A stretch of 64,000 bases of DNA from positions 89,758-153,757 of the forward strand of contig JBFLWK010000001.1 of the NCBI GenBank assembly GCA_040757695.1, in the 5' to 3' direction. The DNA comes from Elusimicrobiota bacterium (GTDB taxonomy: Bacteria; Elusimicrobiota; UBA8919). Shown here in pieces: positions 10,463 through 54,425 of this stretch. Both the position numbers and the translations under genes were made by a program. Each line of letters begins with the position of its first letter. Position 1 is the stretch's first letter. The notes below the pieces were generated by a model, which saw only the letters and a program-made list of their open reading frames with translations, was not told where the DNA came from and ran no database searches.

Positions 10463-11341
10463 TCATTCAATATATTTCTGTAAAGCAATTGCAAGTTTTT
10501 TAGAAAGCGTGTTTTCTTCGGTATTTAACAAAACTGCCAGATTTTTTTTAGCTTCTGCGATATTATTCTTTTTTAGATAAGTTAGTGCAACTAAAAAATG
10601 CGCATTCACCGCTGTAAAGTTAGAAATTGCGATATCTGGATTTTTTTTCATATTAATATATCCTTCTAAAATTCGGGAATCAAACGATGTAGTAAAAAAT
10701 GGTTCTGATTCAGCATATTTACCAGTTAAAACATTCAACTGTAAAATACTGTTTTTTATACTATCGGTTGGACATAGTGCCAGCGCCCTTTTGTATAAAT
10801 CAATAGCTTCGTTATCTCGCCCGGTATTTTTATAAATAACCGCAAGCCCGTTTAATGCTTCAATACTGCTGTTATCAAGTTGCAGTACTTTTTTATAGTA
10901 TTCTTCTGCCTTTTCGTATAGCAATTTTTTATAATAAACCGCACCCAGCCCGAGATAAATCCGTATATCTTTTGAGCCGTATTTTAATGCTTTATTATAT
11001 TCAAAAATCGCTTCATTATGCATATCAGCACCGCGATATGCCTCCCCTAATTTTAGAAGGACAACCGGGTTTTTTTTCTTAATTTTTTTGGCATCAGTAT
11101 AAAATGTAATTGCATAACTGTACTCGCCACGCATTAAATACTCATCACCTTTAGAGATATAGAATCTAATTTTTTCTTTTTTTGATTCTGCATATAAAAA
11201 GATGGAAAGATAGAAAGATAGAAAGATGGAAAGATAGAGAGATGGAAAGATAGAAAGATGGAAAGATAGAAAGGAAAATCTATTGCCCAACCACCTAGCC
11301 ATCTTACCATCTATCCATCTATTAGAATAGTATTTTTTCAT
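10463..11341 (-). CDS. TPR-repeat protein with a repeat-encoded hydrophobic N-terminus
   Basis: Several TPR-like segments (AITFYTDAKKI..., LYEKAEEYYKKVLQLD...). The N-terminal FSFLSFHLSIFPSLYLSIFLSFYLSIFLY is encoded by 8-nt tandem repeats (agatRgaa)n at ~11199-11275. Confidence 0.5.
   Translation of the reverse strand: MKKYYSNRWIDGKMARWLGNRFSFLSFHLSIFPSLYLSIFLSFYLSIFLYAESKKEKIRFYISKGDEYLMRGEYSYAITFYTDAKKIKKKNPVVLLKLGEAYRGADMHNEAIFEYNKALKYGSKDIRIYLGLGAVYYKKLLYEKAEEYYKKVLQLDNSSIEALNGLAVIYKNTGRDNEAIDLYKRALALCPTDSIKNSILQLNVLTGKYAESEPFFTTSFDSRILEGYINMKKNPDIAISNFTAVNAHFLVALTYLKKNNIAEAKKNLAVLLNTEENTLSKKLAIALQKYIE
11199..11275. repeat. Tandem octanucleotide repeats (AGATAGAA/AGATGGAA, ~9 units) inside the 5' coding end of the TPR gene
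   Basis: Read directly from the sequence. The unit length is not a multiple of 3 and gives an 8-aa periodic hydrophobic peptide. Confidence 0.8.
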
Positions 11342-12294
11342 TTTAGAAATACTATTTTATCAATAAACTTTTCAAGTATTTTATCTTTGATAGCATTCGC
11401 CTTACTTCTTGTGGCAACAAGCCCTGCCTCTATACATTCTGCTGACCTGTCAAGTTCTATCATACTCACATTTTTTATATTCGGTATTATTACAAAATCG
11501 GCATTTTTTATCTGATTAGATACCAGGAATCCAGCTTGAATATTTATCGCCTGAATGAGTGTTTTCATAACATTATCTATATTAAATAATGAATAATCTA
11601 CCTGTGGCCAGACAGCAATTACAAAATCGGCAGCCATTACTTTTGCGATATCAATCGGTAGATTATCAACCAACCCGCCGTCTACAAGCAGCCGATGTCG
11701 GTATTCAACCGGCTTAAAGAGACCCGGGATTATTGCAGAAGCACGCATTGCAAATGCTGCCTCGCCTTCCTTAAAAACGATTCGTTCACCAGTTTTTATA
11801 TCACAGGCGATACAGGCAAACGAAATTTTTAACTCGTCAAACCTTTTTTGCCTGATATGTTTTTCCAGATATTTTTCAAGTTTTTCTGTGCTTAACAGCG
11901 ATTCCGCAGTAATAAGTGTTAGCAGTTTAGTTGCTGAAAGATTTGATATTTTATTCCAGCCAATATCAGTCCCTATCCGTTCTATATCAGTTATCGCCAT
12001 ACCTGTCGCATAGAGCCCGCCAACAAGCGCACCGGCACTGGTACCAACAATAATATCAGTCGGTATATTATTTTCTTGAAGCACCTTTAAGACGCCGATA
12101 TGACTCAGACCTCGTGCGCCGCCACCACCTAATACTACCGCGATTTTAGGCCGCTTAGAGTTCAATGCTAAAAAATCTTTCCATAATAAATCTCTTAATA
12201 AATTATCAGATTGAGCATAAAGGCAGGTAAAAGGTAAAAGGTAAAAGGTAAAAAGTAAAAGGTAAAATCTCAAACTGCGAAGAACAGGATACAT
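11338..12294 (-). CDS. Patatin-like phospholipase
   Basis: GGGARG oxyanion motif, GTSAGA (GxSxG nucleophile elbow), DGGLVDN (catalytic Asp). The signal peptide RFYLLLFTFYLLPFTCLYAQ is encoded by heptamer repeats. Confidence 0.8.
   Translation of the reverse strand: MYPVLRSLRFYLLLFTFYLLPFTCLYAQSDNLLRDLLWKDFLALNSKRPKIAVVLGGGGARGLSHIGVLKVLQENNIPTDIIVGTSAGALVGGLYATGMAITDIERIGTDIGWNKISNLSATKLLTLITAESLLSTEKLEKYLEKHIRQKRFDELKISFACIACDIKTGERIVFKEGEAAFAMRASAIIPGLFKPVEYRHRLLVDGGLVDNLPIDIAKVMAADFVIAVWPQVDYSLFNIDNVMKTLIQAINIQAGFLVSNQIKNADFVIIPNIKNVSMIELDRSAECIEAGLVATRSKANAIKDKILEKFIDKIVFLK
12226..12268. repeat. 6× GGTAAAA heptanucleotide tandem repeat (coding strand TTTTACC) encoding FYLLPFT in the signal peptide of the patatin gene
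   Basis: ggtaaaaggtaaaaggtaaaaggtaaaaagtaaaaggtaaaa. The 7-nt unit is in frame only in multiples of three units. Confidence 0.85.
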
Positions 12295-12297
12295 TTT

Positions 12298-13593
12298 TTA
12301 TTCAATAATTTTGCCGATACTGGTTTCTAAATTGATTTTTGCGATTATAACATCTTTCAATGCATCAATATATTCAAGTTGGATATTCATCGCTGTCTCT
12401 AACATTTCAATAAACTCAAGATATGTAAGTTCTTTTAATACCTCATCTGTTACAGTTGTAGCAAGTTGTTCTTTTTCGTTAGTTTTTTGTTCAAACTTTT
12501 TAACTGCAAACTCGTAATCAACAAAACATTTTCTTACCTCGGCCTGGATTGAGTCGGTAATACTTGCTCGGTTAATCTGTGTTTTTCTATATTGGTACTT
12601 TTTTTGTTTTATTCGGGCAAACTGACCAAAACCATCAAATATCGGTAGTGTAAAATTTATAGTTGCATTCCACGCTCTTTTTTCAAATGGCAACTGTCTA
12701 TCTTCAAGTTGATAGTTGCCACCGAGTGTAATTATAGGATACCTGCCGGATAATGATAGGTTTACTGAAAGCGCATCCATCTGTTCCTGAAGTTGCGTTT
12801 TTTTAAGTTCAGGCCGATATTCAAGCGCCCAGGCAATGCATTTATTGAGGTCTACCACAGCCTTTTTGTGCTCTAACTCGCCTTTGATTGTGAATATCGT
12901 ATTTAACTCTATCCCGATAGAATCAAGAAAATCAATTTCTGCCAGTTCCAGTTCTTTCTGGTTTTTGGTTTCTGCTGATTTTATTTTTTCAATTTTTTTT
13001 TCAGATATAAATCTGTCTTTAGGGTTTAAAGACTCATTTTTTCTATTTGATATTTTTTCAATAGTTGCTTTATAAATCTCAACTTTTTTCTGGATTGATA
13101 GAAGTGTATAGAAATTTTTTTTAGCCGATGAGCCTGTTTTGTTTTTGATTACCTCGTAATCACTTTCAGCCGATTTCAATTCTGTTTCTGCAAACTTCTT
13201 TGTAGCAGAAATTTTGGCACCACTCCATAATATCTGATAGAGCGAAATTTTGGCTGTATAATAATCTTCAATGTTATCAACCAGTGGCTCAATTTTTTGT
13301 GGCAGGATAGTGTTGCCCAAAATAGGCGAAATCAACAGCGGGCTTTCGGCTTTGAATTTGGAATAGTTGGCGTTGAACTCCAATTGCGGATACATTATTG
13401 ACCGCGCTTCTTTCAGCCGTTGTCTGGCAATCTCTATATCCTGTCGGGCGGATAGAAGTTGCTGGTTGTTTGAAATCGCAAGATTAACACTATCGTCAAC
13501 TGTTAAAACTCTTTCTACAAGTTGCTGGGAATAGAGACAGGTAAAAGGTAAAAGGTAAAAGGTAAAAGGTAAAAGGTAAAAAAATTTTTTCAT
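12298..13593 (-). CDS. TolC-like outer membrane efflux protein (OEP family)
   Basis: Signal peptide, then a TolC-type N-terminus LTVDDSVNLAISNNQQLLSARQDIEIARQRLKEARSIMYPQLEFNANYSK; two-repeat coiled-coil architecture; 431 aa. Confidence 0.65.
   Translation of the reverse strand: MKKFFYLLPFTFYLLPFTCLYSQQLVERVLTVDDSVNLAISNNQQLLSARQDIEIARQRLKEARSIMYPQLEFNANYSKFKAESPLLISPILGNTILPQKIEPLVDNIEDYYTAKISLYQILWSGAKISATKKFAETELKSAESDYEVIKNKTGSSAKKNFYTLLSIQKKVEIYKATIEKISNRKNESLNPKDRFISEKKIEKIKSAETKNQKELELAEIDFLDSIGIELNTIFTIKGELEHKKAVVDLNKCIAWALEYRPELKKTQLQEQMDALSVNLSLSGRYPIITLGGNYQLEDRQLPFEKRAWNATINFTLPIFDGFGQFARIKQKKYQYRKTQINRASITDSIQAEVRKCFVDYEFAVKKFEQKTNEKEQLATTVTDEVLKELTYLEFIEMLETAMNIQLEYIDALKDVIIAKINLETSIGKIIE
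13540..13581. repeat. 6× GGTAAAA heptanucleotide repeat encoding FYLLPFTFYLLPFT in the TolC-like signal peptide
   Basis: Near-identical ~50-nt cassette (acag + 6 units + aaaaattttttCAT) to those at 12226 and 20440. Confidence 0.85.
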
Positions 13594-17122: not shown

Positions 17123-18352
17123 CTACCGATTACAATTGAGTAATTCAGGTTCAATAATTTTTTTTAGTACTTTCTGGGCTTTAAGGAGTGCTTCGGCGAG
17201 TGGTGAACGGATAACTGCCTGAACAGATGCACCAGCACGCTGACAGGATTTTTCGGTAAATTGAGTAACAATTTTGTTATGAATAATTTTTAGCGGTATT
17301 CTTTCCTTGATTCTCGGTAGATAAACAATCCTATCCGGATTCAGCTTGTTTTTTCGTGGAATACCTGTAATCCGCTGAGCATAATAACTGATATCCGGAT
17401 GGTTTTTGCCGATAATTTTTTCAGCATACTCAACCGCTTGGGCATTTTCAATATACTCCAACTCTGATAGATACGCTGCATCACCGCATTTTATCTCATC
17501 GTTGGCTGATTCAATATTTTTGTAATGGACCGGTTCTATATCTGACAATTGAAACTCGCATTTATCAACAATCTCCTGGCTATTATCTAAAAATTGTTGT
17601 GGCATCCCGGCATCCAGCATTTCTTTTTCTGATTTCAACCAGTAATGATGCGAATCAATTTTGAACGATGAAATTTTATCAAATCTGGTTTTTATAACTA
17701 AATCGTGTGAAAGCCAATCATCAATCTCTAAATAATGCACATCATTTGTAGCAACGGGCTTGACATCGTATTTTTTAGCAAGTTCTAAAAGCGCTTTGTT
17801 TGATATTTCCTCGTCGGTAATCCCGTGTTTCCCAATCTCAACATAAAAATTTGTTTGAAATATATTTTTGTATCTTAAAAAAATTTTTTCGGCTTCCGGA
17901 AAACCACTCTTTATGTAGACCTGTGATATCTGGTTAAAAAAACAACTTGTTGTCGCAATCAAGCCATCAGAATATTTTTCCAGCAGTTGCCAGTCAACAA
18001 GCCCGCGTTTCTCATAATAGTTATTCTCAAGCCAGCTATCTGAAACAAGTGATACAAGATTCTTATAACCGATAGGATTTTTAGCGAGTAATAGCAGGTG
18101 GTATCTGCTTTTATCCTTTTTGTAAATTGATTTTTTAGCATCATCAACAAAATATACTTCAACTCCAAAAATCGGTTTTATGCCATATTTTTTACAAATA
18201 TCCGAAAACTCATACATAAACGGCATCTCGCCATGCTCGGTTATTGCAATTGCGTTCTGTCCAAGTGTTTTTGCTTTTTTTATACCTTCTTCAAGTTGAA
18301 GTGCACTATCAGAAAACGAGCCAATAAAATGGTTATGCAGATGTGAAAACAT
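17123..18352 (-). CDS. PHP (polymerase/histidinol-phosphatase) domain metal-dependent phosphoesterase
   Basis: N-terminal HxH motif MFSHLHNHFIGSFSD...AIAITEHGEM; 409 aa. Confidence 0.65.
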   Translation of the reverse strand: MFSHLHNHFIGSFSDSALQLEEGIKKAKTLGQNAIAITEHGEMPFMYEFSDICKKYGIKPIFGVEVYFVDDAKKSIYKKDKSRYHLLLLAKNPIGYKNLVSLVSDSWLENNYYEKRGLVDWQLLEKYSDGLIATTSCFFNQISQVYIKSGFPEAEKIFLRYKNIFQTNFYVEIGKHGITDEEISNKALLELAKKYDVKPVATNDVHYLEIDDWLSHDLVIKTRFDKISSFKIDSHHYWLKSEKEMLDAGMPQQFLDNSQEIVDKCEFQLSDIEPVHYKNIESANDEIKCGDAAYLSELEYIENAQAVEYAEKIIGKNHPDISYYAQRITGIPRKNKLNPDRIVYLPRIKERIPLKIIHNKIVTQFTEKSCQRAGASVQAVIRSPLAEALLKAQKVLKKIIEPELLNCNR

Positions 18353-20493
18353 TATTTCTCAGGCAGATTAAATAAATCAATTTTTAGGTTCTGGTTAAAA
18401 TACAACTTTTTAAGCAACAAGTTAGTTTTTACATTAAGCGTGGGATTACTAAAATCAAGCCGATGCGGAAAAATTATTCTGCCGGCTGGTTTATAGTCGG
18501 CAAATTGTATCACAGAACCGTTGTCAAACTCCAGTTCGGTAATTGTATGCGATTTCTTGTCAATTTTTAAGTTGACAGTACTATTTTTAAAACTATAAAG
18601 ATTTTTTTCTTCATTCACAAAATTCAGTTCATCAAAACATTCGGTATCAAAAATCTTGAAAATATCTCTAACCCAGCAAAAGTCGCTAGTTAAGTCATAC
18701 ATTGTTTGAGATGGTGTAATATACACGATTGTCCCCTGTCGTAATAGAATAAGCCCTTGCGGGACTGAAAACAGCCCTAAAATTTCTACTCTGAGTTGTT
18801 TAGGTTTCTTGAAGAAAAACGGGCCATTGATACTGTAGGATTTGTTTTTATAGTTAGTTGTGGCTTTTACAAAGCCGGCAATATCTTGCAGGTTTTTGAA
18901 ACATTTTAACGCACGATTTTTTACCATTTCCGACGACCATTCCAGATTTTTTTTATATTTTCTTATTTTGTTTTCTATCAGTTTATTTCTTTCTAACTCT
19001 AATAACAATGCGGTTTCCCAGTTGTCAACCGCATTCTGAACATCGCCAACAGATAAGTAGCAATCGCCGAGATGGTCAAAAATTATAGGGTCATCCAATT
19101 TCTCAGATGCTTTTTTTAACAATTTTAATGCCTCGTCATATTCTGCCCGACGATAATACACCCAGCCAAGCGAATCAATATATGCGGGATTTTCAGGTTC
19201 TAACTCTAACGCTTGTTTAATAAACTGTTCTGCTTCTACAAGTTTTACATTCTTATCCGCCCAGGTATAGCCAAGATAATTATACGCCTGCGAAGTGGTT
19301 GTATCTATTTCTATAACCTTAAAAAACGATTGCTCTGCCAAAGCCCATTTTTTCAGTTTATCATAAACCACACCGAGTTCAAAATGATATTTAGCATTTT
19401 GTGGCTCCATTTTGAGTGCTTTGTTAAGATATTTTTCTGCTTTCTTGTAGTTATTCAGAACCTCGTAATTCATCGCCAGAAAAAAATATACATCCGGATT
19501 TTCAGAACCTAACCTGATTGCTTGTTCAAACGATTTTACTGCCTGTTTGGTATTTTCTAAAATTGTAAAAATATAGCCCTTCTGTATGTATGGTTCAGGC
19601 AATTTTTTGTTTAGATGAATTGAATGGTCAAAATATTTTAGTGCCTCATCATATTTTTTTTCATCAAGCGCAATCAAGCCAAGATAGTAATCAACCCAGT
19701 GATTTGTTGGAATAGTTTCTTTTATTTTTAACAGATATTTTTTAGCAGTTAATAAATCCTTATTAAGAATTGAAAGCCCGGCAATTTTTAGCATAGGTTC
19801 GGTATCTTCAGGAAAGATATTAAGTAATTTCTCGTATAATTCAATTGCTTTTTTGTAGTCCTTTTTTTCTTCGTAAATCCCAGCAAGCGCAACCAATGGA
19901 ACAATAGAATTGGAGTCCATCTCATATGCTTTTTTAAGATACGATTCGGCTTCAACGGGCTTATTAAGTTTGTGATACAGAATTCCGATACTTACATAGA
20001 TTTCTGGTGATTCCGGCTGTAACTGAAGATATTTTTCAAAATATGTAATTGCTTTTTCGTAATTTTTAATTTCAGCATATAGAACAGCCAGGTTATAAAG
20101 TGCTTTTTCATTTGCTGGTTCTGTTGACAAAATTTTTTCATATGCAGAGATAGCATCTTCAGGTTTTTTTTGATAAACCGATATTTCGGCAATAAGTTCA
20201 GTTGTTAATTTATCTTCAGGCTGCTGTCTGGCTATTTCAGAAATCAGTTCAGATGCGGAGTTTATATCGCCTGTTAGAAAATAGAGGCTCAGCAGTTGTT
20301 TTTTGAGATATATTGAAGCAGAATCATACACTGCAGATTTTTTATACTCGTCTATCGCTTTTTTAGAATCACCCATCAGTTCTGCGATATTGCCTAAAAT
20401 ATAATGATAGTATGCATCGGATTGGGCAGAATGAAGACAGGTAAAAGGTAAAAGGTAAAAGGTAAAAGGTAAAAGGTAAAAATACTTTTTCAT
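18352..20493 (-). CDS. TPR-repeat secreted protein with a C-terminal LolA-like/lipoprotein-sorting-like domain
   Basis: At least ten TPR units (AISAYEKILSTEP..., AITYFEKYLQLQP..., etc.). Signal peptide MKKYFYLLPFTFYLLPFTCLHSAQ encoded by heptamer repeats. C-terminal domain assignment is low-confidence. Confidence 0.6.
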   Translation of the reverse strand: MKKYFYLLPFTFYLLPFTCLHSAQSDAYYHYILGNIAELMGDSKKAIDEYKKSAVYDSASIYLKKQLLSLYFLTGDINSASELISEIARQQPEDKLTTELIAEISVYQKKPEDAISAYEKILSTEPANEKALYNLAVLYAEIKNYEKAITYFEKYLQLQPESPEIYVSIGILYHKLNKPVEAESYLKKAYEMDSNSIVPLVALAGIYEEKKDYKKAIELYEKLLNIFPEDTEPMLKIAGLSILNKDLLTAKKYLLKIKETIPTNHWVDYYLGLIALDEKKYDEALKYFDHSIHLNKKLPEPYIQKGYIFTILENTKQAVKSFEQAIRLGSENPDVYFFLAMNYEVLNNYKKAEKYLNKALKMEPQNAKYHFELGVVYDKLKKWALAEQSFFKVIEIDTTTSQAYNYLGYTWADKNVKLVEAEQFIKQALELEPENPAYIDSLGWVYYRRAEYDEALKLLKKASEKLDDPIIFDHLGDCYLSVGDVQNAVDNWETALLLELERNKLIENKIRKYKKNLEWSSEMVKNRALKCFKNLQDIAGFVKATTNYKNKSYSINGPFFFKKPKQLRVEILGLFSVPQGLILLRQGTIVYITPSQTMYDLTSDFCWVRDIFKIFDTECFDELNFVNEEKNLYSFKNSTVNLKIDKKSHTITELEFDNGSVIQFADYKPAGRIIFPHRLDFSNPTLNVKTNLLLKKLYFNQNLKIDLFNLPEK
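20440..20481. repeat. 6× GGTAAAA heptanucleotide repeat in the signal-peptide codons of the TPR gene
   Basis: aggtaaaaggtaaaaggtaaaaggtaaaaggtaaaaa; same cassette as at 12226 and 13540. Confidence 0.85.
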
Positions 20494-21005
20494 ATGATTT
20501 TTGCCATAATTACTGCATCGTCGGTATTTGAATAGTATTTTTTACGAATACATATTTTTTTAAACCCGAAGTTTTTATAGAGTGTTATCGCAGGTAGATT
20601 GGTATCCCGGACCTCAAGATATATCTTCCCATTTTTTTTTATATTAAATGATTTTACAAAATCTATTACATATTTCAACATCGTTTTCCCAAAACCCTGG
20701 CGCCTATAATTTTTTGAGACGGTAAAATTTGTAAGATGTATTTCATCATCTATACACCAGAACACAACATAGCCGACAATTTTGGAAAAAAGTGTCACTA
20801 CAAAAAAATATGAGAATTCAAGTTGCAGTTCTTTGTAAAACATTTTTGGTGTCCACGGGTCAGGATATGCTTCGTTTTCAATTTTTACTATTTCAGGTAT
20901 ATCGCCGGGAGCAGCAAATCTGATATTTAAACTATCTGTTAATTTTTTTTTGTTCATCAACATATGCATGTCTGATATACAATGGCAAAACGGTTTCATA
21001 GCCAC
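20490..21005 (-). CDS. rimI: Ribosomal-protein-alanine N-acetyltransferase (GNAT). The true start is probably ~20960, since the track ORF overlaps tsaB.
   Basis: GNAT motif RRQGFGKTML; the conserved tsaB-rimI pairing. Confidence 0.7.
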   Translation of the reverse strand: MAMKPFCHCISDMHMLMNKKKLTDSLNIRFAAPGDIPEIVKIENEAYPDPWTPKMFYKELQLEFSYFFVVTLFSKIVGYVVFWCIDDEIHLTNFTVSKNYRRQGFGKTMLKYVIDFVKSFNIKKNGKIYLEVRDTNLPAITLYKNFGFKKICIRKKYYSNTDDAVIMAKII

Positions 21006-33866: not shown

Positions 33867-36539
33867 TTAATCGCCGAACAGTTTATCAAATATGTTTTTT
33901 TTCTTACCCTCCACATCACCCTTTTTTTTGGCTTCTTCCTGTTGTTTTACCTGCCATTCTAACAGTCGTTTTTTTAACATCTCGTTTTCTTTAAGTACTG
34001 TTTGATATTTAATCTGCCAGTTTGTTTCAGTCAACATTATTTGTTTTTTAAGTGATGCTGTTTGGCTTTCTAACTCCTCAATTTTCTTATTTAATATCTT
34101 TTTCTGTTCCTCTATTCCTTGCCGGACAAGTTTTTCTATTTCATTAGTTTTTTCTTGTAGTATCTGTTGTTTTTCTTGCTGTAGATTAAATATCTTTTCA
34201 TTCAGTGAGATTCGCTCATCATTCATTTTCTTGTGTAATATTTCCGTTTCGGTTTCAACCTGCGAGAGCCGGTTTAGAAGTTCCTGTTCTTTCTGTTTCG
34301 TTTTTTCAATATGTTTCTCGTTTTCTGCCTGTTGATTTATAAGCATTTGCTCAAATTTTTGCTTCTCAACATTCGCGGATTCTCGCAGTTTTATTATTTG
34401 CATTTGCTCTATCTGTAATTGTTCTTTAACCGTTTTGAGAAGTTGTTCGCGCTTTTCTATTTCAATTTGCCAATTAGCATCTTTCTGGATTATTACTGCT
34501 TCTAATTCATTCTGTTGTGTTACATCTTTTTCTACAACACTCTTTAATCTGTTTATTTCTGCTCTTAATTCATTTATTGTCTGCTTTTTTTCTTCAAACT
34601 CTTTTCGCCAGTGTTCGTCGTTTTGCTTGAACTCCTGTATAAGTGCTAATTTTTCTTTTTCATTATTATCTATTCTGTTTTTGAAACTATTTATTATTCG
34701 TTCCTTTTCCTCTTTCTCTATTTGATACTGTGTTGCTTTTTCTCGTTCAACCAAAATTATCCCGCCCAATTTGTTTAAATCCTCGTCGGTATGTTTTATT
34801 TCCTGTTGTAATTGTTTTATCTTCTGTTCAAAACTCTGCACGATGGTATCTTTTGATTGTAATTGCTCATTGAGCAGTTTTATTGTCAGGTCTTTTTTTT
34901 GCAACTCAGTTTGAAGTTGGAAGGTCTGCTGTAACATTTCTGTTTCTAATTTTTTTATTTCGTCTTCTTTAAGGTTAAGTTTGGCAACCAACTGACTATT
35001 ATTTTCAAGCATTTGATTTTTCAGAGTATAGATTTCTACCTCTTTATTTTCTACTGTTGTTTCTAACTCTTTTAATTGGTTTTCTAATGTTTTGAGCATC
35101 TGGTCTCGTTTCTGAAGTTCAATTTGTAACTGTGTATCTTTCTGTAATATCTCGGTTCCTAATTCACCTTTTTGTTTGATATTTTCTTCTATTGTCTTTT
35201 TTAGTTTACTGATTTCACTCCGTAACTCATCTATTGTTTGTTTTTTCTCTTCAAACCCTTTTCGCCAGCGTTCGTCGTTTTCCTTAAATTCCTGTAAAAG
35301 TGTCTGATTCTCTTGCCCTAATTCTACTATCCGTTTGCTTAAATTGCTTATTTCTTTCTCTTTCGCTTCATGCTCTACACACCATTGCGAAACCTTTTGC
35401 ACTAGTTCTAAATCTAACTCTGCCCGTTGTTGCTCTAATTTGTTCGTTTTTAACTGCCAATCTCTATCATGTTCTTCTAATGTTTTATTAAATGTCTCAC
35501 GCACTTCTTTTATCTGTTTTTTTAATGTTTCTATTTCCTGTTCTTTCTGTTGAACCGTCCCTTGAAACTGGTCATTAATTACATCTTTTTCTCTATCATA
35601 TTTCTCACGCTCGGCTAAAATTATTGCACCTAATCTGTTCAAGTCGTTTTTCTCTCGGTTTAATTCTGTCTGTAATTGTTTTTCTTTTTCGTCAAAACCC
35701 TGTATAAGCGAGCTTTTCTCTTTTTCAAACTCTTTTTTTAACTGCGAACTCTCTATTTCAACCATTTGTAATTTGTCGTTCAGTAATTTTATTGTTTGCT
35801 CTTTTTTCTGCAACTCGGTTTGAAGTTGAAAATTCTGCTGTAACATTTCTGTTTCTAACACACTTTTTTCTTTTATTATAATACCGAGATTTTTATGTGT
35901 TTCGTTTAATTCTTTGCGTAGTTCATCAATTTCTTGCTGTCTGTTCTGCAGACCTTCCTGCCAGCGGTTCTCTTTTTGAACAAATTTATCTATCAGTGAG
36001 TCCTTCTCTTTATCAAAATTATCTTGTAACTCTTTTTCACGAGTTCTGATTTTCCCTAATGCTTCAACTCGGATTTCTTCCCGCTGTCTATCCAGTTTCC
36101 TAATTTCTTCTTCTTTTAGTTGAAATACATCCTGCCAGTGCTTGTTATTTTCAAAAATCTGGGTTTTGAGATTCTGGATTTCAATATCTTTATGTTTAAT
36201 TTTTGTCATTAACTCTGTGATTTCCTGTTTGTATGGTATTTCTATCTCTTTAACTTTTGTCTCTGCTTCTGCCAATTTTTGGGTTATTTGAATTTGTTGC
36301 GATTTAATTTTTTGTATTTCATCTGACCATTGTATCAGTTTGTCTTCTAATTCTTTAACTATATCTGACAGGATTCTTTTAATATTTGTTGCAACTGCAA
36401 AAGCACGAATATCAGTATCAGATTTCCCGGGTTTTGTTATTTTTTCTTCGGTATAACCAAAACCAGTTTTCATTTTGGTTTTTATTTCTAACAGCAAGGC
36501 GTCTATCTCGTCTTTATATTTTTCCATAATTATTTCCAA
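33867..36539 (-). CDS. 890-aa coiled-coil protein with ~100-aa internal repeats (Q/E/K-rich), inserted between acsC and the RACo gene
   Basis: Heptad-rich sequence throughout. Repeated blocks: ETEMLQQNFQLQTELQKKEQTIKLLNDKLQ / ETEMLQQTFQLQTELQKKDLTIKLLNEQLQ, and RWQEGLQNRQQEIDELRKEL / RWRKGFEEKKQTIDELRSEI / HWRKEFEEKKQTINELRAEI. No enzymatic motif. Confidence 0.6.
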   Translation of the reverse strand: MEIIMEKYKDEIDALLLEIKTKMKTGFGYTEEKITKPGKSDTDIRAFAVATNIKRILSDIVKELEDKLIQWSDEIQKIKSQQIQITQKLAEAETKVKEIEIPYKQEITELMTKIKHKDIEIQNLKTQIFENNKHWQDVFQLKEEEIRKLDRQREEIRVEALGKIRTREKELQDNFDKEKDSLIDKFVQKENRWQEGLQNRQQEIDELRKELNETHKNLGIIIKEKSVLETEMLQQNFQLQTELQKKEQTIKLLNDKLQMVEIESSQLKKEFEKEKSSLIQGFDEKEKQLQTELNREKNDLNRLGAIILAEREKYDREKDVINDQFQGTVQQKEQEIETLKKQIKEVRETFNKTLEEHDRDWQLKTNKLEQQRAELDLELVQKVSQWCVEHEAKEKEISNLSKRIVELGQENQTLLQEFKENDERWRKGFEEKKQTIDELRSEISKLKKTIEENIKQKGELGTEILQKDTQLQIELQKRDQMLKTLENQLKELETTVENKEVEIYTLKNQMLENNSQLVAKLNLKEDEIKKLETEMLQQTFQLQTELQKKDLTIKLLNEQLQSKDTIVQSFEQKIKQLQQEIKHTDEDLNKLGGIILVEREKATQYQIEKEEKERIINSFKNRIDNNEKEKLALIQEFKQNDEHWRKEFEEKKQTINELRAEINRLKSVVEKDVTQQNELEAVIIQKDANWQIEIEKREQLLKTVKEQLQIEQMQIIKLRESANVEKQKFEQMLINQQAENEKHIEKTKQKEQELLNRLSQVETETEILHKKMNDERISLNEKIFNLQQEKQQILQEKTNEIEKLVRQGIEEQKKILNKKIEELESQTASLKKQIMLTETNWQIKYQTVLKENEMLKKRLLEWQVKQQEEAKKKGDVEGKKKNIFDKLFGD

Positions 36540-37843
36540 ACAGTTTTCAGATATTTTGGAATACCTGACGCTTCCTTAGGCCCAACCAGAACCTGCCAGC
36601 CGGTAGTATCTTCCAATTTCCCGCTCATCACGGAGACATATCCGGGAATGATTATTTTTTTATGTGAGACCTTACTTGCAATTTCCGTTTTTTTCATCCA
36701 GGTATCAACTATTTCAGCATTAAACTTATCCGCAGCCCAAGCAGTTAAAACAGACATACCATCGGAATCACAGACCAGAAGCCACGCAGGCATTTTTGAG
36801 TTTTCTACTTCAGGCACGACGGTAAAAAATGTTAACGAAAAGTTTGTTGTAACTAAAAAAGGTGATTGAGCATCAGGTGTGCCAATGGTATAAAGTTTGG
36901 GCTCCATCATTATAGGTTTCTGCGGGTCAGTATAGATATTAAGCCGAAGTGTAATCAACGGCAGGATATCTTCAACTTTATCGGTTTCTACAACAAGTAT
37001 GTTCGCATATTTTGTAATATATGTTGACGCTTCAAATATATCTTTGGCAAATGCAAGGACAGGATAGCCAAGCGGTCTAAAATTCTTTTTTAGTGCCAGC
37101 CGTCTGATTTGTGTAAAATCCTGCACACATTTTGATAGTTCCCGAGAACCGCAATCAAGCACAATATCTTTAATACCTGATGAAGATGCCTTTTGAGAAA
37201 GTGAAACAAGTTTTTCAATATTTTCTCCATATACGCAAATCGGTACTTTATACTTTTTTGCCAATCCGAACATTTGTTCGGATTGCTTTTCAGTTGCACA
37301 ATAAATCAGTGGTTTTTTTTGAGAAATATTTTTCAGCACCTCATCTATTGCCGTCGGATTTTCACTAATAAGAATTAAAGGCAATTTTATTTTATCAGAA
37401 AGTTCTTTTGATATATCTGCGAATTTTGATATATCATTTGAAACATTTTTAACCGCAACAAGGTCTATGCTAACCAGCATTCCAACTCTTTCAAACTGAA
37501 GTTTTTTTATTTTTTCTATTTTAGTTGAAAGATTGGGCTCGTTATCGGCGACAGATACAGCAATCGCTGTTGGATGATAGAATGTTTTTTCATGACGGAA
37601 AAGCACTGTCTCGCCACCGATTTCTACTTTTTTTTCACCTTCGCCAATTGTGATTGTTGCCATTGGTGGAAGCGATGCGGACTCTAAAAGTTGTTTTGCC
37701 TGTTCAGTTACATCCGGACATTTATCCAGCGTAGTTTTTTTTCCAGCGAGTGCCATTGCAAATGCCAGACAGGTAGGGAATCCACATTTTTTACAATTTG
37801 TTTTTGGCAGATGTTTGTAAATATCAAGCCCTGAAAGCGCCAT
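36530..37843 (-). CDS. acsC: Corrinoid iron-sulfur protein large subunit (CODH/ACS gamma subunit)
   Basis: N-terminal [4Fe-4S] motif CKKCGFPTCLAFAMALAGKKTTLDKC; TIM-barrel and C-terminal B12-binding Rossmann region; 437 aa. Confidence 0.75.
   Translation of the reverse strand: MALSGLDIYKHLPKTNCKKCGFPTCLAFAMALAGKKTTLDKCPDVTEQAKQLLESASLPPMATITIGEGEKKVEIGGETVLFRHEKTFYHPTAIAVSVADNEPNLSTKIEKIKKLQFERVGMLVSIDLVAVKNVSNDISKFADISKELSDKIKLPLILISENPTAIDEVLKNISQKKPLIYCATEKQSEQMFGLAKKYKVPICVYGENIEKLVSLSQKASSSGIKDIVLDCGSRELSKCVQDFTQIRRLALKKNFRPLGYPVLAFAKDIFEASTYITKYANILVVETDKVEDILPLITLRLNIYTDPQKPIMMEPKLYTIGTPDAQSPFLVTTNFSLTFFTVVPEVENSKMPAWLLVCDSDGMSVLTAWAADKFNAEIVDTWMKKTEIASKVSHKKIIIPGYVSVMSGKLEDTTGWQVLVGPKEASGIPKYLKTVWK
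37263..37284. promoter_or_regulatory. Single 22-nt palindrome AATCCGAACATTTGTTCGGATT (Cheo-box-like core) inside acsC coding sequence
   Basis: Read from the sequence; it encodes ...SEQMFGL in frame. Confidence 0.4.
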
Positions 37844-43022: not shown

Positions 43023-43706
43023 TTACCTTACGATTTTGGTTTTTACATTACCAATAATAGAAACTGTTTCTTTGTCAACTGCAAGCACGATTTTGTCACC
43101 GGAGTACTCTGAAACACCATCGGCATCAGTTCTGACTATTTTTGGTGGACCGCCTAAAAGTAAAATTTCGTTTGTTTTATGGTCGTAAAATGCTTCCTTA
43201 CTGAATGCTTCTGTTTCCGATTGAGAAATTTTAACATTTTGGATTGCATGGAACCGGTCGCCGAACTCAAAAATCTCTAATTCTTCACATTTTAATTCAA
43301 TAACATCTGTTGTGTTCTGGCTTAATGTTCTTTTTACTTTTACATTCTTTTTCAAAATACCCTGTCCGTTATTTTTGTTATATTCTGCTTCATCACCCCA
43401 GGAATATGTAACGGATGTGCCACTGGAATAACAGATATAGATATTTCCGGTGCCTGAAATCACACTTGTTTTTTCGTTTGATTTCATTTTATCCGCAGAG
43501 ATTGTAAGGTTCTGCTGTGTAAATTTTACATTCCCAATAAATTCAAGAATCTCGCCTTTAGATAGTATCTTCATCTGGTCACCGGTGATTGTTGCCTGTT
43601 CACCAGCATAGAGGCAGTAAATAAGTGAATAAGTGAGTAAGTGAATAAGTGAAAGACACATAACCACATAACCACTTAACCACTCAACCACTTTATTTAT
43701 CTTCAT
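43023..43706 (-). CDS. LptA/OstA-like periplasmic LPS-transport protein
   Basis: Beta-jellyroll OstA-type repeats (ITGDQMKILSKGEILEFIGNVKFTQQNLTISADKM...); adjacent to lptC-like; signal peptide encoded by octamer repeats. Confidence 0.5.
   Translation of the reverse strand: MKINKVVEWLSGYVVMCLSLIHLLTYSLIYCLYAGEQATITGDQMKILSKGEILEFIGNVKFTQQNLTISADKMKSNEKTSVISGTGNIYICYSSGTSVTYSWGDEAEYNKNNGQGILKKNVKVKRTLSQNTTDVIELKCEELEIFEFGDRFHAIQNVKISQSETEAFSKEAFYDHKTNEILLLGGPPKIVRTDADGVSEYSGDKIVLAVDKETVSIIGNVKTKIVR
43621..43692. repeat. Two blocks of 8-nt tandem repeats (AAGTGAAT ×4; CATAACCA ×4) encoding the signal peptide of the LptA-like gene
   Basis: ataagtgaataagtgagtaagtgaataagtgaaagacacataaccacataaccacttaaccactcaaccac. 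Confidence 0.8.
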
Positions 43707-47236: not shown

Positions 47237-47980
47237 TCAAATTATTTCAATATATTTTTTTTCTACCCAGCCACGAACACCGAGTGATTTTACGCCTATC
47301 TCTAACCACTCGCCCCCCTCGCCTGATGTTCCTAACAGTATCACCTTTTTACCTTCCGGCACGGTAAAGTTAACCTTGAAATTAGTATCAGGTCCTGACC
47401 TAACCTCAGCGGTATTGATAACAACTGCTTCCTGCCGGGCTTGTTGACGGTATTTTATCAAATAGAGTGCTGAAAAGAAACCAAAAAATAAAACTGATAC
47501 AACAACCAGCCAAAACATTTTTTTAAACGGATAAACAAATTTTATAGAAATAACAACTACAAAACTAAACAACGAAATCGCAAATAATAATCTTAACCTG
47601 TTTATATTAAACCTTGAAATCAGTGATTGCTCGTAATCCGGGTCTTTTATCAGTTGTGCAATAAACTTTATGTTATAATTAACATCGTCATCCGCTGGCG
47701 AAATTTTTCTTGCTTTTTCATAATAGACCATTGCTAAACCAATTCTACCCAGTCGGAAATAGGTGTTGCCAAGATTATAAAAAAGGTTTGTAGACGGATA
47801 CGATTTTTCAATTATTAAAAACTGTTCAAGTGCTTTTTCATAGTTGCTCTTTTTGTAAAACTCGCAGCCGGTAGAAAAAATTTCAGTTTCTGAAACAGCA
47901 TAGAGGTGATTGCAGATTGCAGATTGCAGATTGCAGATTAAAAACAACAAAAAAATTTGTAATTTTTTCATATTTCCCAT
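47237..47980 (-). CDS. batE: BatE-like TPR + bacterial SH3 domain protein
   Basis: TPR units; C-terminal SH3b (VINTAEVRSGPDTNFKV...GEWLEI...RGWVEKKYIE); signal peptide encoded by (GATTGCA)n. Confidence 0.55.
   Translation of the reverse strand: MGNMKKLQIFLLFLICNLQSAICNHLYAVSETEIFSTGCEFYKKSNYEKALEQFLIIEKSYPSTNLFYNLGNTYFRLGRIGLAMVYYEKARKISPADDDVNYNIKFIAQLIKDPDYEQSLISRFNINRLRLLFAISLFSFVVVISIKFVYPFKKMFWLVVVSVLFFGFFSALYLIKYRQQARQEAVVINTAEVRSGPDTNFKVNFTVPEGKKVILLGTSGEGGEWLEIGVKSLGVRGWVEKKYIEII
47907..47940. repeat. 4.5× GATTGCA heptanucleotide repeat (coding strand CTGCAAT) encoding LQSAICNLQSAICN in the batE-like signal peptide
   Basis: tgattgcagattgcagattgcagattgcagatta. The same unit (aatctgc) is repeated at 7057-7093. 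Confidence 0.85.
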
Positions 47981-50493: not shown

Positions 50494-50496
50494 ATA

Positions 50497-51507: not shown

Positions 51508-51523
51508 AATTTTTTAGGAAAAG

Positions 51524-52507: not shown

Positions 52508-52518
52508 AATTTTTAAAC

Positions 52519-52555
52519 CCTAAACTCTAAACTCTAAACTCTAAACTCTAAACTC
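52519..52555. repeat. 5× TAAACTC heptanucleotide repeat spanning the stop codon of the DUF4381-like gene, ~25 nt upstream of the batA start
   Basis: ctaaactctaaactctaaactctaaactctaaactccc. On the coding strand this is (GAGTTTA)n, encoding ...SLEFRV with stop TAG inside the repeat. Confidence 0.8.
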
Positions 52556-53478
52556 CCTTCTTTTGGTTTTACCATTTCAACTATATTTCTTGCATTTTCA
52601 AAACTTTGGATTATGTCTTTTTCTTCAGGTATATATCTAGCAAATTTTACAAGGTCAGAAAATTCAAAAAACTCACGAAGTATTACTAGAAATTTTTTGT
52701 CCACAGATTTTTCACGAAGTGCTTTTATTGATTCAGAAGTGGTCATATCTATAATATTCACTAAAAATATCTTCGATAAATAAATCCGAACAATTTGTGT
52801 CAGCCGAAAATAAAATTCTTTCACCAGCCCTCTTTTTATCAAATCCGTTTTTTCCAGTTTTGCGAGTTCATCAGTCGCATACAAGTACGGGTCTACTATT
52901 TCATCAATAATTTGTGCAAAATTCTTTTTCTGTAATTGATACTTATAAATAAAATAACACAGCAAAACTAATATCGGGATACCTGCAACAAGAATATAAA
53001 AAACAGGGTGGTGCTTCAAGTTCACAGGCGGTTTGATGTCTTTTATATCAGCCGCACTTTCTTTATCCAGCAAACTCGTAACTTCTATCCTGATGGGATT
53101 CGTCTGGCTCTGTGCTGGTTTGCCGTCTTGCGTGATAAAATCTATAATGAACGGTTTTATCTCGTAAATCCCGGTTGTGAATGTAGCAAGAATATACTCA
53201 TATTTTTTTTTATATCGCCCGAATAACAGATATTTTTTTCTTTCTTTTGTAATTTTGTAATCTTTGATTTCAAAACTTTTAAGATTTTGTTCTGGTGTAA
53301 AGGAACTAATTTTTACGCCATCTGTATATTCTAGAATAAGCGTCAGTTTTACCTTATCGCCAATTGTTATTTTCTTTTTGTCAGTATAACCTAAAATATA
53401 GACATTGGATAAAAGTGGTTGCACAAAACAACCAATGAAAAATATCCAAGACGATAATCTGCGTAATCTATAATTCAT
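52534..53478 (-). CDS. DUF4381-like membrane protein of the Bat/MoxR operon
   Basis: Signal/TM at the N-terminus plus a central TM (VFYILVAGIPILVLLCYFI); operon position between DUF58 and batA. Confidence 0.4.
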   Translation of the reverse strand: MNYRLRRLSSWIFFIGCFVQPLLSNVYILGYTDKKKITIGDKVKLTLILEYTDGVKISSFTPEQNLKSFEIKDYKITKERKKYLLFGRYKKKYEYILATFTTGIYEIKPFIIDFITQDGKPAQSQTNPIRIEVTSLLDKESAADIKDIKPPVNLKHHPVFYILVAGIPILVLLCYFIYKYQLQKKNFAQIIDEIVDPYLYATDELAKLEKTDLIKRGLVKEFYFRLTQIVRIYLSKIFLVNIIDMTTSESIKALREKSVDKKFLVILREFFEFSDLVKFARYIPEEKDIIQSFENARNIVEMVKPKEGSLEFRV

Positions 53479-54368: not shown

Positions 54369-54417
54369 CTTTAGTTGCGGTTGAAACCGTTATACCGACG
54401 CTAAAGCGTTGTAGAAG
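54359..54417. repeat. Double-hairpin intergenic element TTCTACGCAACTTTAGTTGCGG...CGACGCTAAAGCGTTGTAGAA (family copy 3)
   Basis: Both internal hairpins are retained through compensatory changes relative to copy 1: cgaaac/gtttcg becomes gcaac/gttgc, and gccac/gtggc becomes acgc/gcgt. Confidence 0.7.
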
Positions 54418-54425
54418 TCATTATT

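What the first reader, a model, noticed from the sequence alone, without database searches (positions are those of the whole stretch)
20440..20481. Third copy of the GGTAAAA×6 signal-peptide cassette on a 713-aa TPR protein
The cassette is the same as at 12226 and 13540 and gives MKKYFYLLPFTFYLLPFTCLHSAQ. Three unrelated exported proteins (a lipase, an OM channel and a TPR protein) share a DNA-identical N-terminus. This suggests either a mobile 5' cassette or coordinated phase variation of a surface or OM protein set.
Basis: seen in the sequence. Interest (0 to 1): 0.6.

Follow-up and report, generated by a model that had tools for sequence, protein, structure and literature searches.

The report
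Heptamer microsatellite encoding signal-peptide cores
A perfect six-copy 7-base DNA repeat encodes the hydrophobic core of the export signal of three unrelated envelope proteins in an uncultured Elusimicrobiota bacterium; it is most likely a slippage-prone microsatellite tolerated there, and although a frameshift could switch the genes off, nothing shows that it does.

Summary
(GGTAAAA)6 lies at 20440-20481 and 13540-13581 (both perfect) and at 12226-12267 (one mismatch). All genes are on the minus strand. There the array reads (TTTTACC)6 and encodes FYLLPFTFYLLPFT, the hydrophobic core of the N-terminal signal peptide of a TPR protein, a TolC-like protein and a patatin-like lipase.

It is not a mobile 5' cassette. 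Identity stops at the array plus a short TGY-CTY-YAT tail. Upstream DNA is unrelated, and two of the genes overlap the stop codon of the preceding gene.

The arrays belong to a wider pattern. Perfect tandem arrays in this Elusimicrobiota window have only period 7 or 8. Half of them sit in the first 60 codons of seven envelope-protein genes. Orthologues carry different, related 7/8-mers at the same site.

Best reading: these are slippage-generated heptamer simple-sequence repeats (SSRs), a known bacterial bias. They persist where only hydrophobicity and length matter, seeded by a lineage-conserved TTTT(T)ACC-TGY-CTT motif. Only 3, 6 or 9 copies keep the frame; other counts truncate the product at 23-43 aa. 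An opa/neuO-like ON/OFF switch is therefore mechanically possible. However, all seven arrays are ON, one sits in an LptC-like gene, and no length variation was found. Verdict: new variant of a known kind, moderate interest.

The parts
20440..20481 (-). (TTTTACC)6 perfect heptanucleotide array. It covers codons 5-18 (FYLLPFTFYLLPFT), the h-region of the signal peptide of the 713-aa TPR protein.
20482..20493 (-). n-region ATG AAA AAG TAT (MKKY). The ATG overlaps the TGA stop of the upstream GNAT acetyltransferase ORF 20490..20999.
20419..20439 (-). c-region and start of the mature protein: TGT CTT CAT TCT GCC CAA TCC (C L H S A Q S). Orthologues are conserved from (A)SQSDAYYHY onward.
18352..20493 (-). 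Gene for the 713-aa exported TPR protein. Its C-terminal about 200 aa give a weak, below-cutoff DUF4292 match. It is 100% identical to an NCBI Elusimicrobiota MAG protein (P0001).
13540..13581 (-). Second perfect (TTTTACC)6 array, forming the signal-peptide core of the TolC/OEP-like protein (ORF 12298..13593). The ATG overlaps the stop of the argininosuccinate-lyase ORF.
12226..12267 (-). Third array with one substitution (TTTTACT in unit 2, giving FYLLLFT). It forms the signal-peptide core of the patatin-like phospholipase (ORF 11338..12294).
11194..11321 (-). Same phenomenon with other units: CTTTCTAT/CTTTCCAT x10 (h-region LSIFLSFY...) and AGATGGTT x4 (n-region) in the 292-aa TPR protein ORF 10463..11341.
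43616..43693 (-). Two adjacent 8-mer arrays (GTTAAGTG x4.6, TATTCACT x4.8) encoding the N-terminal hydrophobic anchor of the LptC/LptA-like protein (ORF 43023..43706).
47908..47939 (-). Perfect (TGCAATC)x4.6 array in the signal peptide of the TPR+SH3 (BatE-like) protein ORF 47237..47980.
49692..49803 (-). AGTCAGA x5.7 (n-region) and CTTTCTT x10 (h-region) arrays in the signal peptide of the BatD protein ORF 47968..49812.

Best explanation
The feature is a heptanucleotide simple-sequence repeat (SSR), (TTTTACC)6, inside the 5' coding region of an operon-embedded gene of an Elusimicrobiota MAG.

What it encodes. Because 7 is coprime to 3, the array is read in all three phases and yields the 7-residue repeat FYLLPFT twice. 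These 14 residues are the hydrophobic core of a Sec-type (signal peptidase I) signal peptide: n-region MKK, then the array, then c-region C-L-[YH]-[SA].

How it arose. The array was generated by replication slippage, in a genome and lineage with a strong bias toward 7- and 8-nt tandem duplications. It persists because a signal-peptide core is constrained only for hydrophobicity and length.

Why three unrelated genes share the unit. I infer that signal peptides of this clade share a short coding motif, TTTT(T)ACC-TGY-CTT (..F-T-C-L..), which acts as the seed. For the patatin gene, the module may instead have been copied from a neighbouring gene.

Why six copies. Selection on reading frame (copy number divisible by 3) and on core length (7 aa too short, 21 aa a membrane anchor) fixes the number at six.

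Consequence. Gain or loss of 1-2 units would truncate the protein after 23-43 aa. The array is therefore a latent reversible OFF switch, but I regard this as a by-product and not its function.

Shown: the anatomy, the frames, the window-wide period-7/8 bias, the 5' enrichment and the turnover among orthologues. Inferred: slippage as the generator, the seed motif, selection on copy number, and cleavage by signal peptidase I.
For: 1. Anatomy and frames.
2. Frame consequences: one search shows that only 3, 6 or 9 units stay in frame.
3. Period bias: perfect arrays of at least 3.5 copies exist only for period 7 (six arrays) and period 8 (one array). There are none for periods 4-6 or 9-15, and 0 are expected for periods 5-15 in 50 shuffles (0.18 for period 4).
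4. 5' enrichment: 10 of 20 TRF arrays (period 7/8, at least 4 copies) lie in the first 60 codons of ORFs, which make up 15% of the window (binomial p = 2e-4). Strong lag-7/8 periodicity is found in the first 150 nt of 7 of 50 ORFs and in none at nt 150-300.
5. Carriers: all seven are envelope proteins, namely TPR x2, OEP/TolC, patatin, LptC/LptA-like, TPR+SH3 and BatD.
6. Arrays elsewhere: they also occupy other tolerant places, such as a variable ThiL loop, ORF ends and intergenic DNA. This points to a mutational bias, not a dedicated switch.
7. Orthologue turnover: orthologues (57-65% identical) are conserved from SQSDAYYHY onward but have hypervariable signal peptides. These are built from other, related 7/8-mers at the same site: TTTTAAC/TTTTTAC, CTTTTTAC, TTACTCG, CTCACTTA, TTCTCAC. 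The ACC/TAC-TGY-CTT boundary recurs.
8. The unit is not special: (GGTAAAA)4 occurs in more than 120 loci across many phyla. It is no commoner in viral contigs (9 hits) than composition-matched controls (18, 7, 4).
9. General heptamer bias: other arrays in those loci are almost all heptameric (54 of period 7 against at most 4 for any other period). [quoted passage not shown]
10. Independent assembly: Logan contigs of run SRR29635779 are 100% identical to the window and break inside perfect arrays.
Against: - Three arrays with the same unit, the same rotation and the same copy number are very unlikely if independent (about 6e-5 for a given triple). The 'shared seed' step carries much of the weight, yet it is only inferred from degenerate motifs in orthologues.
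- The patatin orthologues show no such seed.
- The relatives examined have far fewer clean arrays, so something specific to this genome remains unexplained.
- Perfect arrays imply recent or continuing slippage. Length polymorphism, and hence real phase variation, may exist but could not be examined.
- No signal-peptide predictor or cleavage-site tool was available. The signal peptidase I assignment rests on inspection and on the orthologue alignment.
Confidence: 0.55

Rival explanations
1. Adaptive contingency loci. The arrays are maintained because slipped-strand mispairing switches the TolC-like, patatin-like and TPR proteins (and other envelope proteins) ON and OFF at high frequency. This would diversify the cell surface of the population, for example against phage or predators, as in Neisseria opa, H. 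pylori oipA and E. coli neuO.
For: - The unit length is not divisible by 3, the arrays are perfect and they lie in the 5' coding region. A change of 1-2 units truncates the product at 23-43 aa, and the change is reversible.
- Arrays are enriched at gene 5' ends, a signature linked to phase variation in PMC3315296.
- All carriers are envelope proteins.
- Precedents exist for repeats in signal-peptide coding regions and for heptamers that are ON only when the count is divisible by 3 (PMC3960869; PMC13001214; PMC10564699).
Against: - All 7 N-terminal arrays are ON, whereas 66% of neuO alleles are OFF.
- The arrays have only 6 units, while opa and neuO arrays are usually longer.
- Carriers include an LptC-like protein and genes inside housekeeping operons, where a frameshift may be polar.
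- Arrays of the same type sit in a cytoplasmic enzyme loop and in intergenic DNA.
- No length variants were found among orthologue clusters or multi-sample loci. Those arrays are short or degenerate, and the window's own species has only one assembly.
Confidence: 0.2
2. Copying of a signal-peptide module between genes. The array plus its c-region was transferred by gene conversion, template switching or illegitimate recombination, and the arrays are kept identical by ongoing conversion (concerted evolution). This overlaps with the best explanation, since it could account for the patatin copy alone.
For: - Same unit, same rotation, exactly six units, and the same following TGY-CTY-YAT.
- Chance of a shared unit is about 6e-5.
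- Patatin orthologues have an unrelated signal peptide (LLLAACCLLFLF..IYS|NNDNL), so the window's patatin 5' end was remodelled.
- With one codon gap, TPR (TGT CTT CAT TCT GCC CAA TCC GAT) and patatin (TGC CTT TAT --- GCT CAA TCT GAT) match at 17 of 21 nt beyond the array (read).
- In a second species (L210), two different genes share a CTTTTTAC-like 8-mer followed by CTGYCTT.
- A second unit (AATCTGC) is shared by two loci in the window.
Against: - There is no similarity upstream of the array.
- The tail differs at 2 of 9 nt between copies although the arrays are perfect.
- The L-Y-[AS] tail is the general c-region of signal peptides here and in relatives, so convergence can explain it.
- TolC and TPR orthologues already carry related motifs at this site, so those two need no transfer.
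Confidence: 0.2
3. Assembly or sequencing artefact, or a collapsed or mis-joined repeat in the MAG.
For: Three identical 42-nt stretches within 8 kb are a classic source of mis-assembly. Logan k=31 contigs break inside perfect arrays, so the copy number is not independently confirmed.
Against: - All three arrays are embedded in intact, correctly framed ORFs. Their downstream parts match orthologues and conserved synteny: GNAT-TPR-...-ArgG-ArgH-OEP-patatin-TPR.
- The independent Logan contigs are 100% identical to the flanking DNA at the two other perfect arrays they reach, 52514-52555 and 47908-47939.
- Related arrays occur in other Elusimicrobia assemblies (L061, L062, L209).
Confidence: 0.03
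4. FYLLPFT-C-L-Y-A is a specific functional sorting or lipidation signal (a variant lipobox or a clade-specific export tag), and the DNA repeat is secondary.
For: FYLLPFT-like remnants followed by T-C-L recur in several signal peptides of relatives: LLPFYLLLLTCL, FYLLFFTC, FLLFTCL, LPFYLSTCL. The same peptide forms the signal peptide of a lipoprotein in Elusimicrobia UBA4817.
Against: - Orthologues of the same protein use quite different cores (LLLTSHFSLLTTV, LTYSLTHLLTF), and many lack the Cys.
- F-T-C does not fit the L-[AS]-[GA]-C lipobox, whereas the UBA4817 protein has a normal FFTGC after its array.
- Other signal peptides in the window use unrelated units.
Confidence: 0.04

Closest known systems
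Neisseria opa genes: CTCTT pentamer coding repeats in the leader-peptide region (PMC3960869; bioRxiv 10.1101/2020.09.16.300947)
   Same: A pyrimidine-rich tandem repeat, with a unit not divisible by 3, lies inside the signal-peptide coding region and encodes its hydrophobic core. Only some copy numbers (6, 9, 12) keep the frame. Several genes in one genome carry the same unit.
   Different: The opa genes are paralogues of one family in a host-restricted pathogen, and they show documented switching at about 1e-3 per generation. Here the carriers are unrelated families, including housekeeping envelope functions, in an environmental Elusimicrobiota. The unit is 7 nt with only 6 copies. Switching has not been shown.
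E. coli K1 neuO: 5' heptanucleotide repeat AAGACTC (PMC13001214)
   Same: A heptanucleotide coding repeat at the 5' end of a gene, giving a full-length product only when the copy number is divisible by 3.
   Different: neuO arrays range from 3 to 53 copies and are OFF in about two thirds of genomes. They encode a hydrophilic N-terminal extension of a cytoplasmic enzyme on a prophage, not a signal peptide.
H. pylori outer-membrane protein genes (oipA, sabA etc.): CT dinucleotide repeats in the 5' signal region (PMC10564699, PMC2715451)
   Same: An SSR in the signal-sequence coding region of outer-membrane proteins, with frame-dependent expression.
   Different: The unit is a dinucleotide, the genes are paralogous adhesins in a pathogen, and the switching is demonstrated.
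Over-represented heptameric SSRs of bacteria (Mrazek et al. 2007 LSSR5-11; cyanobacterial STRR; Xanthomonas/Nostoc GGGNATC; PMC4692102)
   Same: Period-7 arrays dominate among longer SSRs. They occur in environmental, non-pathogenic bacteria of many phyla and vary between close relatives. They are thought to reflect polymerase slippage, not a specific function. My own counts agree.
   Different: The described cases are mostly intergenic. A concentration in signal-peptide or anchor coding segments, with one unit shared by three genes, is not reported in the papers I could search.
Conserved 5' signal-peptide cassettes of variable lipoprotein families (Mycoplasma vlp/vsa/vpma) - recalled from memory and from the titles
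   Same: Several surface-protein genes share a near-identical 5' end that includes the signal peptide.
   Different: Those cassettes include the promoter or 5' UTR, belong to paralogous gene families, and switch by site-specific recombination or promoter repeats. Here nothing upstream of the array is shared.

Membership tests
SSR-mediated phase-variable (contingency) gene with coding repeat | Tandem repeat whose unit length is not a multiple of 3, inside the coding region near the 5' end | tested here: met
   7-nt unit, codons 5-18
SSR-mediated phase-variable (contingency) gene with coding repeat | Gain or loss of one unit shifts the frame and abolishes the full-length product; the change is reversible | tested here: met
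   In silico, 4, 5, 7 or 8 units give 23-43 aa products and 3, 6 or 9 units give full length
SSR-mediated phase-variable (contingency) gene with coding repeat | Copy number polymorphic within populations or between strains, with OFF alleles present | tested here: inconclusive
   The species has one assembly, and Logan contigs break in the arrays. Orthologue clusters and multi-sample loci show no length variants, but their arrays are short or degenerate. All 7 N-terminal arrays in the window are ON.
SSR-mediated phase-variable (contingency) gene with coding repeat | Dispensable, environment-facing gene product | tested here: inconclusive
   TolC-like, patatin and TPR proteins are plausible candidates. 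However, the same kind of array sits in an LptC-like gene and in a ThiL loop.
Bacterial heptameric/octameric SSR class (LSSR5-11) | Perfect or near-perfect arrays of 5-11-nt units far in excess of chance, with period 7 predominant | tested here: met
   6 perfect period-7 arrays and 1 period-8 array against 0 expected, with no other period from 4 to 15. The same bias holds in 1.6 Mb of other loci. Literature.
Bacterial heptameric/octameric SSR class (LSSR5-11) | Unit sequence not conserved; rapid turnover between relatives | tested here: met
   Different 7/8-mers occupy the orthologous site in five species. Control heptamers are as frequent as GGTAAAA.
Sec-type (signal peptidase I) signal peptide | Positively charged n-region, 7-15-residue hydrophobic h-region, and a c-region with small residues at -1/-3, followed by the conserved mature protein | tested here: inconclusive
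   By inspection: MKK + 14-residue core (mean Kyte-Doolittle hydropathy 1.37) + C-L-H-S/A. Orthologue conservation starts at (A)SQSDAYYHY. No signal-peptide predictor was available.
Lipoprotein (signal peptidase II) signal | Lipobox L-[AS]-[GA]-C | tested here: not met
   The sequence is P-F-T-C, and many orthologues lack the Cys. Contrast FFTGC in L061.
Mobile or shared 5' expression cassette | Shared promoter, 5' UTR or RBS, or recombination sites flanking the shared N-terminus | tested here: not met
   No upstream similarity. The ATG overlaps the upstream stop codon.
Known structured RNA element | Match to an Rfam family | tested here: not met
   No Rfam hit at gathering threshold anywhere in the window

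The most novel reading that the evidence does not exclude
In this Elusimicrobiota lineage, microsatellites are the normal raw material of signal peptides. T-rich 7/8-nt arrays are repeatedly born, expanded to an in-frame length, decay and are replaced at the 5' ends of envelope-protein genes. The perfect arrays (three TTTTACC arrays, TGCAATC and others) would then form a set of independently slipping, reversible OFF switches. These would give a free-living groundwater bacterium stochastic heterogeneity of its envelope proteome, that is, contingency loci outside host-associated pathogens and on non-paralogous genes.
Probability: 0.2. Interest if true: 0.7.

Novelty: new variant of a known kind. 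Interest (0 to 1): 0.45.

Why it matters
If the arrays do slip at measurable rates, this would be SSR-based phase variation in an uncultivated, non-pathogenic environmental phylum. It would affect unrelated envelope functions (efflux channel, lipase, TPR/BAM-or-Lol-like protein, Bat proteins), not one adhesin family. Even if they do not, the locus shows concretely how signal peptides can be created and replaced by microsatellite expansion. That would explain why signal peptides of orthologues are unalignable while the mature proteins are 60-65% identical. Practically, such arrays break short-k assemblies (the Logan contigs end in them) and can mislead gene callers about start codons and about exported versus cytoplasmic status.

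Tried and rejected
1. Genome-wide search for the repeat. It showed the unit is widespread but could not census this MAG.

2. Metagenome scan. It was useless for strain-level comparison.

3. Protein search with the signal-peptide sequence. A 51-aa concatenate returned only junk short ORFs at E > 0.01, because of composition bias.

4. Exact look-ups in the look-up of encoding contigs. The TPR, TolC-like and GNAT proteins of the window are not on record. MoxR and BatC gave Logan contigs 100% identical to the window but ending inside perfect arrays, so they carry no copy-number information.

5. Candidate OFF allele. P0122 (676 aa against 730 aa) turned out to be a gene-calling difference with identical DNA.

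6. Apparent indel between L125 and L126-128. It is a structural difference at a contig junction, not an SSR.

7. Is GGTAAAA a special unit? Rejected: composition-matched control heptamers are equally frequent in viral contigs.

8. Lipoprotein signal. Rejected on the lipobox test.

9. Antisense partner array. Rejected: all 15 matches are on one strand.

10. Known RNA family. No Rfam match.

11. Crude hydrophobicity classifier. A Kyte-Doolittle test for 'signal-peptide-like' ORFs did not separate classes well (Fisher p = 0.12). I therefore rely on position enrichment and on Pfam identities.
Full report
**Observation.** On the + strand the window contains GGTAAAA x6 at 20440-20481 and 13540-13581. 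Both are perfect (TRF: period 7, 6.1 copies, 100% matches). A third array at 12226-12267 has a single G->A change at 12254. A double unit matches 15 times, against 0.16 expected from dinucleotide-preserving shuffles.

Every long ORF in the window lies on the minus strand, and GC skew is uniformly negative on the + strand. The coding strand therefore reads (TTTTACC)6. The three ORFs start as follows:
- MKKYFYLLPFTFYLLPFTCLHSAQ (713 aa, TPR)
- MKKFFYLLPFTFYLLPFTCLYSQQ (431 aa, OEP/TolC family)
- MYPVLRSLRFYLLLFTFYLLPFTCLYAQ (318 aa, patatin)

Family assignments come from Pfam and NCBIfam.

**Organism and context.** The TPR protein is 100% identical to a protein of an NCBI 'Elusimicrobiota bacterium' MAG on a 155-kb contig. 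The next relatives are 57-65% identical and all come from Elusimicrobia MAGs.

The TPR and TolC-like ATGs overlap the stop codons of the preceding genes, a GNAT acetyltransferase and an argininosuccinate lyase. Gene order GNAT-TPR-...-PHP-ArgG-ArgH-OEP-patatin-TPR is conserved in relatives. The arrays therefore sit inside operons, not behind their own promoters.

Alignment of the three 5' regions shows identity only across the array and 7 of the following 9 nt (TGY CTY YAT = C-L-Y/H). Upstream sequence is unrelated. This rules out a mobile 5' expression cassette.

**The wider pattern.** The three arrays are part of something larger.
- TRF lists about 20 arrays of period 7 or 8 with at least 4 copies in 64 kb.
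- Counting perfect arrays of at least 3.5 copies, there are six of period 7 and one of period 8. There are none of period 4-6 or 9-15, and none are expected by chance for periods 5-15 (0.18 for period 4).
- Ten of the 20 lie within the first 60 codons of ORFs, which make up 15% of the window (p = 2e-4).
- Strong lag-7/8 periodicity occurs in the first 150 nt of 7 of 50 ORFs and in none of the next 150 nt.

The seven carriers are all envelope proteins:
- the three genes above;
- a second TPR protein (CTTTCTAT x10);
- an LptC/LptA-like protein (two 8-mers);
- a TPR+SH3 BatE-like protein (TGCAATC x4.6);
- BatD (AGTCAGA x5.7 and CTTTCTT x10).

In each case the array encodes the hydrophobic N-terminal segment and is followed by a (C)-L-Y-A-like tail. 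Arrays of the same kind also lie in other tolerant places:
- a variable loop of a ThiL-like enzyme, with no net length change relative to 3 of 4 orthologues;
- ORF ends and intergenic DNA;
- three times inside a 204-aa protein with no Pfam match.

**Comparison with relatives.** TPR orthologues align from (A)SQSDAYYHY onward, but their signal peptides cannot be aligned. At the DNA level the same site holds other short repeats:
- CTCACTTA x4 in L209/L124;
- TTCTCAC x3.4 in L211;
- a CTTTTTAC-like 8-mer x4 in L210;
- TTTTTATC-like remnants in L126.

The TolC orthologue has TTTTAAC x2 plus TTTTTAC x2 in L126 and a TTACTCG-like unit x5 in L210. The second TPR gene of L210 has CTTTTTAC x4. The boundary ...TTTT(T)AC(C)-TGY-CTT (T-C-L) recurs across genes and species.

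Another Elusimicrobia MAG (UBA4817) uses (TTTTACC)5 in a lipoprotein signal peptide and (ACCTTTT)4.4 in a transmembrane segment.

The site is thus a hot spot of repeat birth, decay and replacement. TTTTACC-like sequence is an old component of signal peptides in this clade. The relatives have far fewer clean arrays than the window's genome.

Most were in intergenic-looking DNA and a few in signal peptides.

In those 829 kb the other perfect arrays are almost all heptameric (54 of period 7 against at most 4 for any other period). In 757 kb of unrelated metagenome loci, 4 of 6 arrays are heptameric. In viral contigs (GGTAAAA)4 gives 9 hits, against 18, 7 and 4 for three composition-matched control heptamers.

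The unit is therefore ordinary. What is general is the heptamer bias of bacterial SSRs. That bias is already documented and has been attributed to the footprint of the replicative polymerase (PMC4692102, citing Mrazek et al. 2007).

**Mechanism.** Because 7 and 3 are coprime, an array is translated in all three phases, and every 21 nt gives the same 7 residues. TTTTACC gives F-Y-L-L-P-F-T, with no stop, no charged residue and mean hydropathy 1.37. Six units give a 14-residue core.

In silico, 3, 6 or 9 units keep the frame, giving products of 706, 713 and 720 aa for the TPR gene. With 4, 5, 7 or 8 units the three genes yield products of 23-43 aa. With 3 units the core would be 7 residues, and with 9 units it would be 21. 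Six is therefore the only in-frame number giving a normal h-region. This explains the identical copy number without invoking copying (inference).

Of 2,344 heptamer rotation classes, 238 are 'signal-peptide compatible'. Three independent arrays would share one unit with probability about 6e-5, so the three are not independent. Two sources of dependence fit the data:
- A shared seed. The conserved TTTT(T)ACC-TGY-CTT motif is seen in orthologues of the TolC and TPR genes.
- Copying of the signal-peptide module. This is most plausible for the patatin gene. Its orthologues have an unrelated signal peptide. Its post-array sequence matches that of the TPR gene at 17 of 21 nt with one codon gap (read).

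**Phase variation?** The architecture is that of opa (CTCTT in the leader-peptide region; PMC3960869), oipA (CT repeats; PMC10564699) and neuO (a heptamer that is ON only when the count is divisible by 3; PMC13001214). A 5' bias of SSRs has been read as a signature of contingency loci (PMC3315296).

Four things weigh against an adaptive switch here:
- All seven N-terminal arrays are in frame.
- The arrays are short (six units).
- An LptC-like gene and operon-internal genes are among the carriers.
- The same repeat class populates non-switch locations.

I found no length polymorphism. Orthologue clusters have identical N-termini. The one shorter member is a gene-calling difference. Four samples of one related species and two of another differ only by substitutions.

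This test is weak, however. The arrays in those relatives are short or degenerate, and the window's own species is represented by one MAG plus k=31 Logan contigs that end inside the perfect arrays. Phase variation is therefore possible but unsupported. 'Coordinated' variation has no basis.

**Verdict.** The finding is a real, non-random feature: a heptanucleotide microsatellite that encodes a signal-peptide core, repeated on three unrelated envelope genes. It is best explained by the known heptamer-SSR slippage bias acting on a permissive protein segment seeded by a clade-typical motif, with selection for frame and core length.

It works like the opa/neuO class mechanically. Membership in the class of phase-variable genes is not established, because the defining feature, length polymorphism, could not be tested properly. 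I rate it a new variant of a known kind, of moderate interest. The most interesting open reading is SSR-driven turnover of signal peptides together with stochastic envelope switching in a free-living bacterium.

Noticed in passing
window 27304-27317, 27330-27343, 37267-37280, 58030-58043, 58047-58060: Five identical copies of the 14-nt palindrome CGAACATTTGTTCG (GAAC-N4-GTTC, which resembles a Cheo/LexA-type box; that resemblance is from memory). All are in one orientation, against 0.02 expected. Two pairs form tandem 26-nt and 17-nt repeats in the 5' parts of a PMT_2 glycosyltransferase ORF and of ORF 57189..58139. One copy lies inside ORF 36530..37843.
   Followed up: partly
window 52514-52555: The (GAGTTTA)6 array lies between two Bat-operon genes. 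It supplies the stop codon of ORF 52534..53478 and ends 7 nt before the ATG of the BatA-like gene. A Logan contig starts inside it.
   Followed up: partly
window 27528-27559: A (CACACTT)x4.6 array inside a ThiL-like (AIRS) enzyme encodes TSHFTLHTSHF in a variable loop. It has exactly the same length as the unrelated loop sequence of 3 of 4 orthologues, so it looks like replacement without net insertion.
   Followed up: partly
window 6900-7514: A 204-aa ORF with an N-terminal hydrophobic segment and no Pfam match contains three separate arrays: AAGGTGAT x4.4, AATCTGC x5.3 and CTACTCG x4.3.
   Followed up: no
window 7058-7094 and 47908-47939: The same heptamer class (AATCTGC / GATTGCA) forms arrays at two unrelated loci in opposite orientation. 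It was detected because the end of a Logan contig matched both.
   Followed up: no
window 43023-43706: This ORF passes the NCBIfam LptC cutoff and also matches LptA/OstA. Its N-terminal anchor is encoded by two back-to-back 8-mer arrays.
   Followed up: partly
window 12226-12267 and 13540-13581: The two arrays are direct repeats 1.3 kb apart in the same codon phase. Recombination between them would delete the TolC-like gene and fuse its start in frame to the patatin gene (inference).
   Followed up: no
window 47237-55415: A complete Bat-like (aerotolerance-type) cluster: MoxR, DUF58, BatD-like, BatA, BatB, TPR (BatC-like), BatD and TPR+SH3 (BatE-like). Arrays lie at several gene boundaries.
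   Followed up: partly
L125 22085-22193 versus L126-L128: One of four samples of a related Elusimicrobia species diverges completely after position 22085, with different sequence after the MFS gene. This is a structural variant or mobile insertion, not an SSR change.
   Followed up: partly
L062 6031-6094 (Elusimicrobia UBA4817): Two adjacent heptamer arrays, GGGAGAC x4.3 (GDGRRETGDGK) and ACCTTTT x4.4 (PFTFYLLPFT), lie in a loop plus transmembrane segment of a 681-aa membrane protein. Two further heptamer arrays lie within 2 kb.
   Followed up: partly
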